From: an uncultured Verrucomicrobiae bacterium
Lineage (GTDB): Bacteria > Verrucomicrobiota > Verrucomicrobiia > Limisphaerales > Palsa-1400
Length of the DNA stretch: 64,000 nucleotides
Assembly (NCBI GenBank): GCA_963702845.1
Contig: OY969763.1
Span: 3,776,001 to 3,840,000 of the forward strand
Direction of reading: 5' to 3'
The position numbers were made by a program, and so were the translations under genes. Shown in pieces: positions 13,894 through 59,827 of this stretch. The notes below the pieces were generated by a model. That model saw only the letters and a list, made by a program, of their open reading frames with translations, had not been told where the DNA came from and did no database searches. Positions within the stretch are counted from its first letter, which is position 1. Each line of letters starts with the position of its first letter.

Positions 13894-16095
13894 TTACGGA
13901 GTCTGCTTGGGCGCTTTTATTACATCGCCTTTTGTTGCCTCACCGGCTTGCGACGTTTTGCCGACTCCGATCTTCTTCAGGAACGGCTGGATCGACTCTT
14001 TGCGTCCGAGGAATTTCTCGATGGAAATGTTCACGTCGCGCGAGTCGCCCTGCGCGTAGATTTCGTCGCGAAGACGCATGCCGACATCTTTGTCGAAATA
14101 GCCGTCGGGTGCTTTTTCGAAAACGCTAGCCATGTCGGAGGCGATGGCGTCGGCCCAGGCGTAACCATAATAACCTGCGGCGTAGCCCATCAGGTGACCG
14201 AAGTAGGCGACGAATGCGGTGTCCGGCGGCTCGGGTAAAAAGACTTCGCCTTCGATGCGGTTGGACATGGGCACGACCTGGTCCTTGTTGTCCTCATGGA
14301 TGCGCGTGTGCAGCGCGAGGTCAACGAGGCCGAACGCGAGTTGGCGACGATAGAACGTGCCTTCGGTCGCCATGCGCGCTTCTTTCAGTTTGTCGAGAAT
14401 CGCGGCCGGAATTTTTTTCGACGGGTCACGGTAATCGGCCGCGAAACTGTCCAAAACTTTTTTGTCCCAAACCCAGTTCTCAAGCATTTGCGACGGGGCT
14501 TCGACGAAGTCGCGAGGGACGCTGGTGCCGGCGAAACGGGAGTAGTTGGCGCGCGTCAGGATGGAATGCATGGCGTGGCCGAATTCGTGGAAGATCGTTT
14601 CGACGTCGCGATGTGACATGAGCGAGGGCTTGTCGCCAGAGGGCGATGGGAAGTTGCAAATCAAGGCGACGGTTGGGCGCTGATATAGCCCATTCTCGAG
14701 TTGTTTACCTTCAATGATTCCAAACTGGGCGAAGTGGTTGTATTTGCCTTCGCGCGGGAACATATCGAGGTAAAACAGGCCGAGGGGCTCGCCGGTTTTG
14801 GCGTCGCGGACTCCGTAGAGTTGTAAATCGCCGATCCATTTATACGGCGGCGTCAGCACATCGAATTTCAGACCAAAGATTCTCTGGTAAATGCTGAACA
14901 TACCGTCGACAACGTGTTGGTATGGGAAATAAACTTTAAGCTGTTCAGCATCGATATTGTATTTCTGTTTCTTGAGTTGATTGCTGTAATAGCGCCAATC
15001 CCAGAGGTTGATCTTCGCGTTTTGGTCACCGGTTTCTTTGACTTTCATCGCGCGGAATTCGGCCATCTCAGCGTCGAACTTGGGCTGCAGACCTGTTTTC
15101 AACTTCTCCAAAAAGTCTTCAGCGGTCTTGGCGTTTTTAACCATTTTCGTTTCGGTTTCGTAATCGGCGTAGGTTTTGTAGCCGAGCTTGTGGGCGATGT
15201 CGTCGCGCAGGACTATAATCTGTTGCAGCAACGGAACGTTTTCTTTGCGGGCCAGGTTGTCACGTGCGGTTTCGAGCCTCAGGCGGGTAGCTTCGACTTT
15301 GCAGTTGTCGAGCACGGTTGTGTAGTGCCACGTGATATTCGCCATGACGGCATAGGTCTCATTGCTCTGATTCACGCCCGGCGAATTCAGGAAATCTTCA
15401 GGGACACCGTCGAGTTCGGCTTTGGTGAAGACGATCTTCTTTTGAGCTTTGGTGACGTTGCTCTCGAAATCGGTGGTCAGGCCCGAGAGCTTCTTGCGCA
15501 ATTTCTCCACTTCATCGCGTTGGGGCTTCGGCAATTCCAAACCGGCACGGCGATAATCGCGCATCGTCTCTTTCAGGAGCTTGTTATCTTCGCCTTTGAG
15601 CGTGGGGTGCGTGTCGGCGTAGGCTTTGACTGCTTTATAGACGTCTTCGCGATAGTCGAGGCCGACCATCCACTCTTCGAGGACTTTGATCTGATCCGTT
15701 GCGGCATCGCGAACGGCGGCGTCGGTGCTGGTTTCTTTAATCAGCGACAGGCGATTGGCGGCAGTGCCGATGTCGTAGCCGAGGTCGTCCAAGGCGCGGA
15801 TGGTGTTCTGGAAATTGGCCTCGCCAGGCTGGAGCTTGCCGATTTTGTCCAGCTCTGCGTTGGCGATGTCCATCGTGTGCTTCACCGTGGTGGCGATGGC
15901 GTTTGAGCTCGTCTCGAATTTCGGGACGCTGATAATGGAGTGGAATTGTTTGGCGGCTTTTTCGTAGTTGGCCAAGGTCGGATGTTCTTCCGACGCGAGA
16001 ATGGATTTTGATTCCTGGGCACCGACCATAGAGGTAAAGCAAAGCAGAGCAGCGAGTCCGCATCCGGACCGGCTCAACAATTGTCGTAGTGTCAT
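13894..16095 (-). CDS. M3A family metallopeptidase (thimet oligopeptidase-like) with signal peptide
   Basis: FYLDMFPREGKYNH, TIFHEFGHAMH (HExxH), DFVEAPSQMLE and GYAAGYYGYAWA motifs. Confidence 0.93.
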   Translation of the reverse strand: MTLRQLLSRSGCGLAALLCFTSMVGAQESKSILASEEHPTLANYEKAAKQFHSIISVPKFETSSNAIATTVKHTMDIANAELDKIGKLQPGEANFQNTIRALDDLGYDIGTAANRLSLIKETSTDAAVRDAATDQIKVLEEWMVGLDYREDVYKAVKAYADTHPTLKGEDNKLLKETMRDYRRAGLELPKPQRDEVEKLRKKLSGLTTDFESNVTKAQKKIVFTKAELDGVPEDFLNSPGVNQSNETYAVMANITWHYTTVLDNCKVEATRLRLETARDNLARKENVPLLQQIIVLRDDIAHKLGYKTYADYETETKMVKNAKTAEDFLEKLKTGLQPKFDAEMAEFRAMKVKETGDQNAKINLWDWRYYSNQLKKQKYNIDAEQLKVYFPYQHVVDGMFSIYQRIFGLKFDVLTPPYKWIGDLQLYGVRDAKTGEPLGLFYLDMFPREGKYNHFAQFGIIEGKQLENGLYQRPTVALICNFPSPSGDKPSLMSHRDVETIFHEFGHAMHSILTRANYSRFAGTSVPRDFVEAPSQMLENWVWDKKVLDSFAADYRDPSKKIPAAILDKLKEARMATEGTFYRRQLAFGLVDLALHTRIHEDNKDQVVPMSNRIEGEVFLPEPPDTAFVAYFGHLMGYAAGYYGYAWADAIASDMASVFEKAPDGYFDKDVGMRLRDEIYAQGDSRDVNISIEKFLGRKESIQPFLKKIGVGKTSQAGEATKGDVIKAPKQTP

Positions 16096-16190
16096 AGGCG
16101 AAAGGATTAAGCTAAATAATAGTTTACGCAAGTGGGACAGGGCCTGAGGGCAGAGCGTTCGAACTAAGGTGAGCTTACCCAAGCAAACAA

Positions 16191-16231
16191 CCTCCCCTCC
16201 CCGGCCCCCTCCTCCAGAGGCGGAGAGGGAG
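16191..16231. repeat. Intergenic REP-like palindrome (same family as the manA element)
   Basis: CCTCCCCTCCCCGGCCCCCTCCTCCAGAGGCGGAGAGGGAG aligns with 3988-4025. Confidence 0.75.
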
Positions 16232-16250
16232 AAAAGCGGAAAAAAACTAC

Positions 16251-16377
16251 TGCGACTAGGCGCGACCCAGTGCGACTAGGCGCGACCCAGTGCGACTAGG
16301 CGCGACCCAGTGCGACTGGGTGCGACCAGGTGCGACAAACCGATGAGTAGTCGCACCCGAGTCGCAGTTGGGTCGCA
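16251..16377. repeat. 10-bp-period tandem array (YGCGAC core x9, including three perfect 20-mers) plus three inverted GTCGCA copies
   Basis: TGCGACTAGGCGCGACCCAG x3 at 16251-16310. Cores continue at 16311, 16321 and 16331. Inverted cores lie at 16350, 16361 and 16372. Confidence 0.95.
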
Positions 16378-16406
16378 GCACCAGTTGAGGGCCGGAAAAA
16401 ACAGTT

Positions 16407-16750
16407 TTGGTTACCGTTACCTTCGGTTGGTTACCGTTGGTTACCGGGGTCGTCAGTTCGCGCGAAGAGGATTGAGCTGTAACGGCTAAACAATCTTTTA
16501 TTTTGCCGTTAGGAAGTGTTAGCGGGCGATAGCAGGTGTTAGATAACGTTAACGGATTCCACGGCAAAAGGCCGATCAGTGGAGCGGGAATTAAAGGATT
16601 CCTTATTTTTGTGTCAGAAGGTGTCCGAAGGTGACATGTAACGTCGAATGAGTTAACCGCTGAATACGCAGATGGCGCGGAAGGGGGCGGGAAAAAAATG
16701 ATTTTTTTTAAAATCGATATTAACCGGTACAACTCGATACTGCCCGGTAC
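16407..16750. repeat. Four further short arrays with 10-bp period and different cores
   Basis: TTGGTTACCG at 16407/16427/16437. GWTAR (GTTAG-like) at 16508/18/28/38/48. GTGWC at 16611/21/31. CGRTAY at 16715/25/35/45. Confidence 0.8.
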
Positions 16751-16917
16751 GTGTGAGCAAAGGACGCAGAATAAAGCATGAAAGATGAAGTTGAGATAGC
16801 GCCGAAACGGTGAGGATTGACGGGCACACCGCTGGCGTCCGCCTTTGCGCGGCTACGGCGCGACAAGCGAGATTTGTTCGCGGTTTTGTTGCGGGTCGCA
16901 TAGCTGTAAATTTCAGA

Positions 16918-17026
16918 TTTCAAAGATCGCGCTTTAGCGATTCAATTCAGGGCTTCGGAAAGACCTTCTATTGATTCCTACCCAAGTAGGGGTGAAGGAG
17001 TTTACTATAACGTTGCTGTATGTCAA
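16918..17026 (-). promoter_or_regulatory. Putative sigma70 promoter, 5' hairpin and boxA-like antitermination motif
   Basis: Minus strand: TTGACA (17026-17021), a 16-nt spacer, then TAAACT (17004-16999). Hairpin at 16964-16998. GATCTTTGAAA at 16928-16918. Confidence 0.6.
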
Positions 17027-17176
17027 CTATTGAAGCAACGCGTATCCGTCAGCTTGGCCATCGGCCCCGAAAGCGGGAAATCGCTGATTAGTTGTCGATA
17101 CTCAGAACCGACCCGTTTTACGATCTCAATATGTGCTGAACTGTGACGTCGCCCCGCCGTCCGCTGAGGTGACCTC

Positions 17177-17748
17177 GTTAGCCTTCAGGTCAATAAATCT
17201 CATAAATTCTGTCCGTCACTCGGTTGTAACTGTCGTAATGGTTGCCAGACACACCACCACGAGCTGGCTGTGGCCGATAGCTCGCTGCATTGGTGGCGCA
17301 AACTACCTCAAGCCCAAAATACGGGGTTGAGTGTCCACCAGTCGAATGCATACCGAAAATCCTAATGCGCACAACCACAACCTGAGGCTCATCCTTGAAT
17401 TCTCGCGATAGGGTCGGTGAGTAGTAACGCACCTCCCGCGGCTGGAGTGCTGCCAGTGATGGTGGCAGCGCGTTCGTCGCGCCACGATACCAGTCAAATG
17501 CGCTGTCTCGATGCTGCTCCACGAGTGCATCACACTCTTTTTGTAAAGCGGCCCAACCATCTGCTGACTGAACTCGCTTGATGACCTTCTGTCGCTGCGT
17601 GCGTCGCTCAAGCCAATCTGGTGGCCACGAGTTGAGCAACGACGGCAAGATGAAATAGAGAACGAACAAACCCACCGGTATCCAGAGAATGGAAGGCGAA
17701 CTCTTTTTAGGTGGTAGTAAATCTGCCATGCGCGTAGTGCAGGCTAAC
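17177..17748 (-). mobile_element. Solo integron-like gene cassette (core and inverse-core sites; attC degenerate or truncated)
   Basis: Core GTTAGCC at 17748-17742. The complementary inverse core GGCTAAC at 17183-17177 lies 6 nt after the stop. No integrase is present in the window. Confidence 0.55.
17190..17729 (-). CDS. Hypothetical membrane-anchored protein, probably an integron-like gene cassette
   Basis: 180-codon ORF with an N-terminal TM helix. It is flanked on the coding strand by GTTAGCC upstream and GGCTAAC downstream. Confidence 0.7.
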   Translation of the reverse strand: MADLLPPKKSSPSILWIPVGLFVLYFILPSLLNSWPPDWLERRTQRQKVIKRVQSADGWAALQKECDALVEQHRDSAFDWYRGATNALPPSLAALQPREVRYYSPTLSREFKDEPQVVVVRIRIFGMHSTGGHSTPYFGLEVVCATNAASYRPQPARGGVSGNHYDSYNRVTDRIYEIY

Positions 17749-17840
17749 AATTAATCTGCGCCAACTGTTCGCATAGTTTTAATCCGCGACCAAGGGTTTT
17801 AAAGGTGGCGCGCAGGTTTGGCGCGAGCAGTAATGGTGGC

Positions 17841-18001
17841 AGCTCCGTTAGGAGCGTCATGCTTATAGAAACCGGATTACAAGATATACCAAGCTCCGTA
17901 GCAGCGGCATGAAGGCGGTGGCGATTCTGCAACGTGCCGCTCCTACGGAGCTTGGTTGTTCTTGGTTGATCTACTATAGACATGGCGCTCCTAACGGAGC
18001 T
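17841..18001. repeat. Nested inverted REP doublets (REPIN-like hairpin, GCTCCGT(T)AGGAGC units)
   Basis: Outer arms 17841-17868/17974-18001 match at 25 of 28 positions. Inner arms 17889-17911/17933-17955 match at 21 of 23. Confidence 0.85.
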
Positions 18002-18134
18002 AGGCAGCGAAACTTCTTCCGCAGTCACCGAGCCCCTTTCCGTGACCACCCAAACGCTTTCCGCGACCATGACAACCCTCTCCGCAGGCACGGGAACTTC
18101 TGCCGTGGTCACTCCCGTCCTTTCCGCTGTCACC
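18000..18134. repeat. Degenerate 21-bp tandem repeat, about 6.5 units
   Basis: Units end in TTCC/CTCC/TGCC at 18020, 18041, 18062, 18083, 18104 and 18125. Confidence 0.75.
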
Positions 18135-18201
18135 AAGTGAGCGGCGTGGGTTTTTTAATATACAATGGAGTGGTTGCTGCCCAATAGTTGCCGAGAACCG
18201 T

Positions 18202-18552: not shown

Positions 18553-18813
18553 GCGATTCCCGCTTTGCGGCTTGAAGTTTAACCCATCCGGTTACCTGCG
18601 AATCGAGACGCGCCATGTTCTTTGCGCCGACGTGGCAGATGTCGGACGTGCCCAAAACTGACCAGCTTACGGCGTTGTTCATCCCAGAGCCGAAACGTGA
18701 AGGACTTTAAGCTTCCCCAAAAGGTGACCGGCTTGACGCTTACACGGACCTACACGAACGAGCACGGATTACAAAATGCTGTATCGGCCCATGCACAAGG
18801 ACCTTGTTCCAGT

Positions 18814-54311: not shown

Positions 54312-54320
54312 AATGAAAGA

Positions 54321-54436
54321 TCTGGCGCCAACCTACTCTCGCAGAACCTATAGAACTACTACCATCGGCAAGACTGTGTTTGACGGCCGTGTTCGGGATG
54401 GGAACGGGTCGGACCACAGCTTTATGGGCACCAAAA
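54321..54436 (-). rRNA. rrf: 5S rRNA
   Basis: Complement of CCCGTTCCCATCCCGAACACGG and GATGGTAGT...GAGAGTAGGT. Ends approximate. Confidence 0.93.
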
Positions 54437-54726
54437 AATCGTTTGGTCAGTAGCAATCGATTTTGCAATTGCTACGCGCGGGCTCTGCCGCGTTGACCGA
54501 GATTTAAATACTTTTGGCCAGTGCTTTCAATTCATCAGTTAACCAGCGGAGTAACGAGAAAACAGTCTCATCACCCACCCTGCTGAACCGATCGCACGGA
54601 CCGAGATTTTAAAGATCATACCTGGCAAAGCTCAGGAAAACTTCTCTGAAAACTATACGTAGACTTGGGAGCATATTACAACTCGCGAGTTTAAATTACG
54701 CTTTTTTCCTTTGTGGGAAAAAAAAG

Positions 54727-57597
<2,871 letters not shown>

Positions 57598-57768
57598 ACA
57601 AAGTTAGACCTCGTTCTCCTCATTGCTGAAGAAAACAAGATTACTCAGCGAATTGTAATTATTTATGCCCTTTATTATCTACGTATAGTTGTCAAAGAAC
57701 TTTCCCGGCTTTAATCGCTCGAGGGTTTTAAACCCCGAACAATCTCTTCCAGGCAAAATTTTATCAAG

Positions 57769-57845
57769 TGGTGGGCGTGACTGGATTCGAACCAGTGACC
57801 CTGCGCTTATCAAGCGCATGCTCTAACCAACTGAGCTACACGCCC
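57769..57845 (-). tRNA. tRNA-Ile(GAT)
   Basis: Cloverleaf GGGCGTG...CACGCCC-A-CCA. Anticodon loop TTGATAA. Confidence 0.96.
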
Positions 57846-57855
57846 ATTAAAGTGT

Positions 57856-57931
57856 TGGTGGAGCTGAGGAGAGTCGAACTCCTGACCTATAGCTTGCAAA
57901 GCTACCGCTCTACCAACTGAGCTACAGCCCC
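57856..57931 (-). tRNA. tRNA-Ala(TGC)
   Basis: Cloverleaf GGGGCTG...CAGCTCC-A-CCA with a G3:U70 pair. Anticodon loop TTTGCAA. Confidence 0.96.
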
Positions 57932-58246
57932 AACACTTACGATTACTTTTGAGATTCCGATTTGAACCCGCGCCTTGCGACGCGTCAATCGTAAATCGTC
58001 AAACGCAAATCGTAAATTTACGAGTTCGATCTCTTCCACTTGTTAAAGAACAAAAGTCCGCTCCGCAATGTTTAACGTTGCTGATCGAACCGAACGCATC
58101 CATTTGCGTTCCGGCTATTGAAAGCCCATTGAAATCTGAATTGTGCGAATAGATTGAGCCAAAATCTGTGATTTCAAATTTAACTCTGAAATCTCAGACC
58201 GACCTAGGAACGATGGTTAGAAACCGAAGTTTCACCCATCTCCATG

Positions 58247-59827
<1,581 letters not shown>

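What the first reader, a model, noticed from the sequence alone, without database searches (positions are those of the whole stretch)
16251..16750. Five different arrays with exact 10-bp period, arranged in ~100-bp modules after A/T tracts
Seen: cores YGCGAC (x9 from 16251), TTGGTTACCG (16407/27/37), GTTAG-like (16508-16548), GTGWC (16611-16631) and CGRTAY (16715-16745). Each array is preceded on the + strand by an A/T run. The last four arrays start about 101, 103 and 104 bp apart. Cores are conserved while the intervening bases vary, and 10 bp is not a codon multiple. Inference: different sequences sharing the same near-helical period argue against simple slippage. The pattern suits phased protein-binding sites (iteron-, centromere- or Xis-like filaments) or a cassette-like collection of operators, each for a different protein. 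A similar CACG triplet with 10-bp period lies at 18743-18766.
Basis: partly seen in the sequence, partly recalled or inferred. Interest (0 to 1): 0.78.

Follow-up and report, generated by a model that had tools for sequence, protein, structure and literature searches.

The report
Shuffled stack of terminase address labels
This gene-less stretch is a promoter followed by five different short DNA repeat blocks, each spaced one helical turn apart, which recur in new combinations across this bacterium's chromosome and are likely the binding sites of a multiplied family of phage DNA-packaging (small terminase-like) proteins, so it would serve as a multi-address start site for packing host DNA into virus-like heads.

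Summary
The five arrays are real and occur in independent metagenome contigs. Read on the minus strand, the unit is a sigma-70-type promoter, a boxA-like signal, then modules m5-m4-m3-m2-m1, each an array followed by an A/T tract. It is the stack with most distinct co-oriented modules among 154 clusters (255 module hits) in this genome. New here: at 11 of 13 orthologous sites a congener carries different modules, and whole units are gained or lost. m5 and m2 sit directly before the start codon of Mu-gp27-like small-terminase genes in a congener. Across the order, 43 of 69 such genes have a 10-bp array, whose core tracks the predicted recognition helix. The genome holds 15 large terminases, one capsid gene and no tape-measure match. 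Against: only 1 of 82 related phage loci has such an array; no m1-m5 array adjoins a terminase gene in this genome; the ~100-bp pitch is not general. Binding, transcription and packaging are untested. The scan had noted this family before on other DNA of this genome. No description found in the paper searches.

The parts
16999..17026 (-). sigma-70-type promoter TTGACA-N16-TAAACT; its spacer holds AGCAACGTT, a variant of the motif seen in the spacers of the family's other promoters
   Evidence: only promoter-like site in 15900-17300, 10 of 12 consensus matches (1.1 expected by chance, so weak alone); family context
16977..16987 (-). leader motif ACTTGGGTAGG, shared with one other m5-headed unit in this genome and one in a congener
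16918..16928 (-). boxA-like antitermination signal GATCTTTGAAA
   Evidence: 40 of 109 boxA-like sites have a module within 350 bp downstream, against 1 of 189 for five permuted patterns; similar words lie in this genome's rRNA spacer
16692..16750 (-). module m5: alternating TACCG/TATCG cores (10/20-bp period) then A/T tract; usually first behind the leader; lies directly before the ATG of a small-terminase-like gene in congener G001
   Evidence: L260/L087
16590..16640 (-). module m4: GTCAC/GACAC cores x3 then AAAAATAAGGAATCCTTT tract; unit number varies between samples
16486..16555 (-). module m3: CTAAC/CTATC cores x5 then AAAATAAAAGATTGTTT tract
   Evidence: second copy at G000:4978923, third in G002 (L032)
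16391..16447 (-). module m2: GGTAAC cores then A/T tract; lies directly before the ATG of a truncated small-terminase-like gene in congener G001
   Evidence: L273
16231..16378 (-). module m1: three inverted cores, a 13-bp centre, nine GTCGCR cores at exact 10-bp steps, then TAGTTTTTTTCCGCTTTT tract
18743..18766 (+).

Best explanation
The stretch is a gene-less cassette of a promoter, a boxA-like signal and five interchangeable repeat modules that are likely binding arrays for different members of a multiplied Mu-gp27-like small-terminase family, and it would act as a multi-address, pac-like start site for packaging chromosomal DNA. Shown: the anatomy; the dispersal and reshuffling of modules; their position at the start or end of small-terminase-like genes; shared leaders with terminase, protease and adaptor genes. 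Inferred: each helix-turn-helix of a terminase oligomer contacts one core per helical turn, which would fix the period at 10 bp while the core changes with the recognition helix; modules join at the 3' end of the A/T tract by recombination between the many units or with incoming DNA; a bound small terminase recruits one of the 15 large terminases, which cuts nearby and fills the host-encoded or a borrowed head, so that DNA beside a stack (and the stack itself) is transferred and spreads. The promoter and boxA would let transcription cross the C-rich untranslated stack, here towards the M3 peptidase gene.
For: 43 of 69 small-terminase-like loci from across the order have a lag-10 array within 450 bp, against 11, 0, 3 and 12 for lags 8, 11, 13, 14. 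m5 ends at the ATG of such a gene in L260 and m2 at the ATG of a truncated one in L273. Core similarity tracks recognition-helix similarity after removing the rest of the protein: partial r 0.20, permutation p 0.002 (40 loci, 465 of 780 pairs usable); between-genome pairs only, r 0.29, 0 of 1000 permutations, and the signal peaks on the two windows covering that helix (32 loci, 472 pairs); an N-x-x-R-W helix goes with an ACG core in 7 of 8 loci against 0 of 24 (post hoc). The family matches the annotated small terminase of phage B3 (hhalign 88%, E 2.9e-6) and Pfam Mu gp27. The genome has 15 large terminases, 2 portals, 1 capsid, a protease and an adaptor; 5 of 15 large-terminase loci have a lag-10 array against 5% of random windows. 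The same leaders head stacks and terminase, protease and adaptor genes. At 13 orthologous sites with modules in both this genome and a congener, content differs at 11; homology breaks at tract ends; two sites are filled in G002 (355 and 297 bp) and empty here (34 and 24 bp).
Against: Only 1 of 82 phage loci with related large terminases has a lag-10 array nearby and none matches a module profile, so the arrays are not an inherited feature of this terminase clade's phages. None of m1-m5 adjoins a terminase gene in this genome: 7 of 13 small-terminase-like genes here have arrays, all of other types; no direct terminase link was found for m1 or m4, and only a similar core for m3. Large-terminase loci are also rich in 7-bp arrays (4 of 15 vs 8%), so they may simply collect repeats. 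Kin are not independent, so the co-variation p-values overstate. The SF6 small-terminase DNA-binding domain was found to bind pac DNA weakly and without sequence specificity (PMC4737164, passages). The large terminase beside the only capsid gene has an internal stop and no tape-measure gene was found. A strong promoter with boxA is not needed for a packaging site.
Confidence: 0.42

Rival explanations
1. Function-less relics: mobile terminase cassettes lose their coding parts, and the left-over start regions are concatenated and swapped by ectopic recombination at A/T tracts. The arrays were once binding sites; the promoter and boxA only make the insertion harmless to the gene downstream.
For: Truncated terminase starts follow some tracts; content turns over quickly between congeners; m1 and m4 patterns were found in 0 of 300 other genomes of the order sampled, m5 in the genus only; the next gene is co-oriented at 37 of 57 led units; no cognate gene for m1-m5 in this genome.
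Against: Cores, period and tract are kept in every copy while spacers diverge; promoters and boxA stay near consensus at 40 sites; 20 of 57 led units point head-on into a gene, which a rescue promoter would not explain.
Confidence: 0.25
2. Anti-phage decoy or memory: stacks collect the binding arrays of many terminase types and soak up the small terminase of an infecting phage or satellite, stalling its packaging.
For: Many different addresses in one unit, none with a resident adjacent gene; gain and exchange at fixed sites; unit amplification up to about 20 copies behind promoter and boxA in G017.
Against: The arrays were not found in the phages searched; no consistent leader-end growth as in CRISPR (leader-near part shared at 3 of 4 partly shared sites, far part at 1); a few chromosomal copies would titrate little against a replicating phage (inference).
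Confidence: 0.17
3. The product is a non-coding RNA: the antiterminated transcript displays 10-nt repeats as a scaffold or sponge for ring-shaped RNA-binding proteins.
For: Promoter plus boxA at 40 sites, 37 with the module on the same strand; sense strand has C over G at 35 of 43 stacks; the window's transcript folds better than 20 of 20 shuffles (z -4.6).
Against: A fixed 10-bp period across more than 30 unrelated cores fits B-DNA geometry, not single-stranded RNA (established knowledge); the folding owes much to m1's inverted cores; no Rfam family matches here; core tracks a DNA-recognition helix.
Confidence: 0.1
4. Operators for host regulators or nucleoid proteins that tune the downstream gene (here an M3 peptidase).
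For: The stack points into the peptidase gene, ending about 150 bp from it; many units precede housekeeping genes.
Against: The congener G001 has the same peptidase without the stack; the same gene carries unrelated modules in congeners at 11 of 13 sites; the only protein families repeatedly next to modules are terminase-like.
Confidence: 0.06

Closest known systems
pac region of Bacillus phages SPP1/SF6 (PMC4737164, passages read)
   Same: [quoted passage not shown]
   Different: One site per phage genome, weak non-specific binding per domain; here more than 30 array types with exact 10-bp period, stacked without genes in a host chromosome, with core tracking the helix.
SaPI pseudo-pac sites and island-mediated or lateral transduction (PMC6687093, passages read)
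   Same: Chromosomal sites read by an element-encoded terminase that direct one-way packaging of host DNA.
   Different: Pseudo-pac sites are single look-alikes for one terminase of an integrase-bearing island; here arrays for many terminase paralogues are stacked behind a promoter and reshuffled, and the terminase genes are scattered pairs.
Mu-like transposable phage packaging genes gp27/gp28 (phage B3; Pfam PF11985)
   Same: Homologous small and large terminases in the same order.
   Different: In B3 the genes abut and are followed by portal and head genes; 1 of 82 phage loci has a 10-bp array; no Mu-type portal match here (whose control did not ring either).
rRNA-operon boxA antitermination leader (PMC12360218, passages read)
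   Same: Strong promoter, hairpin, boxA-like word resembling those in this genome's rRNA spacer.
   Different: Leads into repeat modules, not rRNA.
Intergenic TAACTGA heptamer arrays of Beggiatoaceae (PMC4679880, abstract and outline read)
   Same: Over a hundred short intergenic arrays of 2-6 units, often just before start codons.
   Different: One perfect 7-mer, proposed to act on translation; here many degenerate 10-mers with fixed tracts, leaders and stacking.
Gene transfer agents (recalled, no paper read)
   Same: Host-kept head and terminase genes without a phage genome.
   Different: No tape-measure match, head genes interrupted by cargo, 15 scattered large terminases, and apparently addressed rather than random packaging.

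Membership tests
phage pac site | direct repeats at or in the small-terminase gene | tested here: inconclusive
   No terminase gene at this stack; m5 and m2 do occupy that position in G001; m1, m3, m4 not seen there.
phage pac site | present in the genomes of phages using this terminase clade | tested here: not met
   1 of 82 loci with a lag-10 array, no module profile hit; m5 pattern 0 hits, m1 pattern 1 hit without an array in viral contigs.
phage pac site | bound by small terminase and cut by large terminase | not testable with these tools
   Indirect only: co-variation.
rrn antitermination leader | promoter followed by boxA | tested here: met
   (sequence level)
rrn antitermination leader | rRNA genes downstream | tested here: not met
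   Rfam finds rRNA only at 54320-59827.
rrn antitermination leader | Nus-factor binding and read-through | not testable with these tools
   needs experiment
gene transfer agent | head, portal, protease and terminase genes in the host | tested here: met
   the terminase in the head cluster has an internal stop
gene transfer agent | tail genes | tested here: inconclusive
   tape-measure family PF10145 not found (control rang in 8 of 14); other tail families not searched; genome rated 90% complete
gene transfer agent | particles carrying host DNA | not testable with these tools
   no particle data
phage satellite (PICI/SaPI) | integrase and att-bounded island | tested here: not met
   no integrase domain among the 13 ORFs scanned around the stack; the unit is gene-less
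MITE / non-autonomous transposon | terminal inverted repeats and target duplication | tested here: inconclusive
   none visible at two filled/empty pairs, but the flanks are only 69-88% identical
CRISPR array | one constant repeat between unique spacers, growth at the leader | tested here: not met
   no constant repeat between modules, no Rfam hit, no consistent polarity
plasmid iteron origin or centromere | adjacent rep or par gene with one repeat type | tested here: not met
   five unrelated cores
integron cassette array | attC site after each cassette | not tested
   no attC model was run; modules carry no genes

The most novel reading that the evidence does not exclude
A bacterial lineage has turned phage packaging into an addressable chromosomal system: a diversified family of small terminases, each reading its own one-turn repeat code, plus transcribed, reshuffling stacks of those codes that decide which parts of the chromosome are packed and passed on (or which invaders are jammed).
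Probability: 0.35. Interest if true: 0.92.

Novelty: categorically new. Interest (0 to 1): 0.72.

Why it matters
If true, it is a programmable route of gene transfer or packaging interference unlike gene transfer agents, satellites or pseudo-pac sites. Even on the weaker reading it offers dozens of natural small-terminase/array pairs with co-varying helix and core, which makes the open question of how small terminases recognise their DNA (sequence versus shape, PMC4737164) directly testable, and it explains hundreds of unannotated intergenic repeats in an abundant soil lineage.

Tried and rejected
Coding reading: a 163-codon stop-free frame runs through the stack on its sense strand (0 of 200 shuffles), but only 4 of 43 stacks reach p<0.05, the 158-aa product has no Pfam match and no homologue among 35 candidates; treated as chance. 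'Tract = start-codon region' as a general rule: ATG after tracts is not above control A/T tracts (37%) and is rare for m1-m5 (2 of 25); it holds for some families only. Fixed 100-bp pitch: rejected. CRISPR-like leader-end growth: not shown. Known RNA or tRNA at the stack: none. Viral origin of modules: m5 pattern 0 hits in viral and metagenome contigs; m1 pattern 19 metagenome hits of which 2 are true modules (L109, L113) and 1 viral hit without an array. A single large-terminase query found no viral relatives; an alignment did. Fold searches of a small-terminase model (pLDDT 78, pTM 0.48) gave nothing at E<=0.001; best viral row a DUF3486 protein at E 0.011. No RNA holder listed among runs: no evidence either way on expression. 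No second read-laying at lower stringency is available, so strain variation rests alone. Paper searches listed no description of this system; (orphan, standalone, solo or domesticated terminase) found 0 papers; subscription journals and supplements were not seen.

Full report
Setting. The window is G000:C1:3776001-3840000 of a single-contig 6.03-Mb genome. The finding lies in the gap between an M3 peptidase gene (minus strand, ORF 13894-16182; Pfam) and small genes without Pfam matches.

Observation. All cores are where stated, with the qualifications given under the observation check. The lag spectrum of 16240-16760 peaks at 10, 20, 30 and 40, also without m1. Contigs from two studies reproduce m2-m4 and the leader almost letter for letter, and one low-depth contig has an extra 10-bp unit in m4 (a single contig at depth 2 may be an error).

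Anatomy. On the minus strand the order is promoter (17026-16999), boxA-like word (16928-16918), then m5, m4, m3, m2, m1, each ending in its own A/T tract. I looked for promoter and boxA because earlier notes of the scan named them. Genome-wide, 40 of 109 boxA-like words have a module within 350 bp downstream (37 on the same strand) against 1 of 189 for five permuted words; the printed contexts show near-consensus promoters with a shared spacer motif and a hairpin before boxA. boxA recruits NusB/E and can block or promote Rho termination (PMC12360218, passages); the sense strand has C over G at 35 of 43 stacks.

A dispersed, shuffled family. A scan for lag-10 arrays next to an A/T tract gave 205 candidates; at the stricter threshold 130, against 3-39 for lags 8, 9, 11, 12, 13 and 62 for lag 7. 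I kept 31 of 53 groups plus m1-m5 as 36 profiles; they give 255 hits in 154 clusters, 67 with two or more modules; neighbours share a strand in 72 of 101 cases; the window's stack has the most distinct co-oriented modules. m1 has 10 hits (two in this stack), m2 3, m3 2, m4 and its wider family 21, m5 7. Nine module pairs occur in both orders among 63 ordered pairs. Alignments show array and tract conserved, flanks unrelated, and homology ending at the tract's 3' end.

Turnover between relatives. The congener G001 has the peptidase gene and its promoter without the stack, with murJ-like sequence a few hundred bases on. I gave 69 loci (67 from G001 and G002, 2 metagenomic; some duplicates) to a flank-mapping script; 40 held a module, 29 none by profiles built from G000, which miss private modules. 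At 13 sites where a flanking gene maps next to modules in both genomes, content is the same at 2 and different at 11 (7 share nothing, 4 share part: the leader-near part in 3, the far part in 1). For example, before the gene at 2054748 both start with m5 and diverge right after its tract; G002 has m5...m3-m4 before the gene at 3619411, where this genome has two other modules. Gene names such as recA, hisS, smc for these sites are my recall from translations, not database calls. Two sites carry a 355-bp and a 297-bp unit in G002 and 34 and 24 bp here. G001 and G002 are only 73% and 67% complete.

Link to terminases. Following the earlier notes' lead, I found 15 large-terminase loci, mostly as stand-alone pairs with a small-terminase-like gene, two portals and one capsid gene, a head cluster broken up by cargo genes whose terminase has an internal stop, and no tape-measure match. 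Arrays end at the start codon of several large or small terminase genes, and the palindromic and LD-type leaders that head some stacks also head terminase, protease and adaptor genes. Among 558 ORFs near modules, the recurring families that sit mostly near modules are terminase-like: Mu-gp27-like 9 of 14, a helix-turn-helix family 5 of 7 with a sub-threshold Terminase_5 hit; other recurring groups there are read-through frames of the repeats or large host families. The gp27-like family matches phage B3's annotated small terminase, is predicted to have a three-helix N-terminal domain at pLDDT about 95, and was found in 32 of 201 genomes of the order, several with ten or more copies.

Of the 30 loci returned by each (fewer than all matches), I dropped one G000 duplicate and one weak hit and added 13 G000 copies; 69 of these 70 had a profile hit, and 43 of 69 have a lag-10 array within 450 bp against 0-12 for four control lags. 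Two of the window's five modules were found in that position in G001: m5 before an intact gene, m2 before a truncated one; m3 has only a similar core next to such genes in two distant genomes; m1 and m4 were not found there. The G000 relative of the m5-led gene carries other arrays and has a changed helix. Core similarity follows recognition-helix similarity beyond overall similarity, peaking on that helix; this tests a claim I took from note e1-9854851. Kin are not independent and the N-x-x-R-W/ACG contrast was picked after seeing the table.

Results against. 1 of 82 phage loci with related large terminases has a lag-10 array, none matches a module or leader profile, and a boxA-like word occurs in 3 near-identical loci. 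None of m1-m5 adjoins a terminase gene in this genome. Terminase loci here also collect 7-bp arrays. In SF6 the binding domain is weak and non-specific (PMC4737164, passages). m1 and m4 patterns were not found in 300 other genomes sampled from the order, though m1 occurs in G001, G002 and G017, which were not in that sample. The next gene is co-oriented at 37 of 57 led units, only modestly above the roughly half expected from gap orientations.

Mechanism. I commit to a multi-address, pac-like landing site (0.42). That the arrays are binding sites of the small-terminase-like family I put at about 0.7; what the gene-less stacks then do (start packaging, decoy, or nothing) is open. Rivals: relics 0.25, decoy 0.17, RNA scaffold 0.10, host operators 0.06.

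Comparison and novelty. It works like pac and SaPI pseudo-pac sites (PMC4737164, PMC6687093, passages) but fails membership on presence in phages, and fails or cannot be filed as rrn leader, satellite, CRISPR array, iteron origin or heptamer array (PMC4679880, abstract). Nine paper searches listed no description; subscription journals are largely outside that library. The scan had already noted this family at other places in this genome; those notes are leads, not support. What this locus adds is the longest stack, direct placement of two of its modules at terminase starts, and locus-by-locus evidence of exchange. Verdict: real, categorically new in architecture, function untested; interest 0.72.

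Noticed in passing
window 16256-16745, minus strand: A 163-codon stop-free frame runs through all five modules on the sense strand; not a general feature of stacks, no homologue found.
   Followed up: yes
window 17744-17800: A 57-bp stretch with 37 other matches in the genome, at the 5' end of a small gene without Pfam match.
   Followed up: no
window 17841-18001: Two nested inverted repeats of 28 and 30 bp forming a long hairpin, with a few related copies elsewhere.
   Followed up: no
window 18002-18137: An array with about 21-bp period (TTCCG cores), related copies at G000:3189708 and 1827066.
   Followed up: no
window 18561-18741: A 180-bp segment 94% identical to G000:517884 and 92% to 3190440, just before the CACG triplet.
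   Followed up: no
window 16185-16235: GC-rich hairpin (REP-like) directly after m1, multi-copy here and in many relatives.
   Followed up: no
   Followed up: no
genome-wide: The promoter-spacer motif of the family reads like the reverse complement of the commonest array unit (GCAAC family, 38 hits), hinting that one family member regulates all leaders; seen by eye, not quantified.
   Followed up: no
L046:10000-19252 (G000 about 5.24-5.25 Mb): Protease, capsid, adaptor, portal and large-terminase genes interleaved with unrelated cargo genes; the terminase has an internal stop.
   Followed up: partly
L036, L038 (G017): m1-type core expanded to about 20 near-perfect tandem units behind a promoter and boxA-like word.
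   Followed up: no
genome-wide; window 57983-58017: A second excess of arrays at 7-bp period (130 clusters), including one in the rRNA spacer.
   Followed up: no
G000:4748265 and 4748540: Two CACG-type arrays flank a 205-aa gene that resembles four-helix-bundle proteins (recalled label, not scanned).
   Followed up: no
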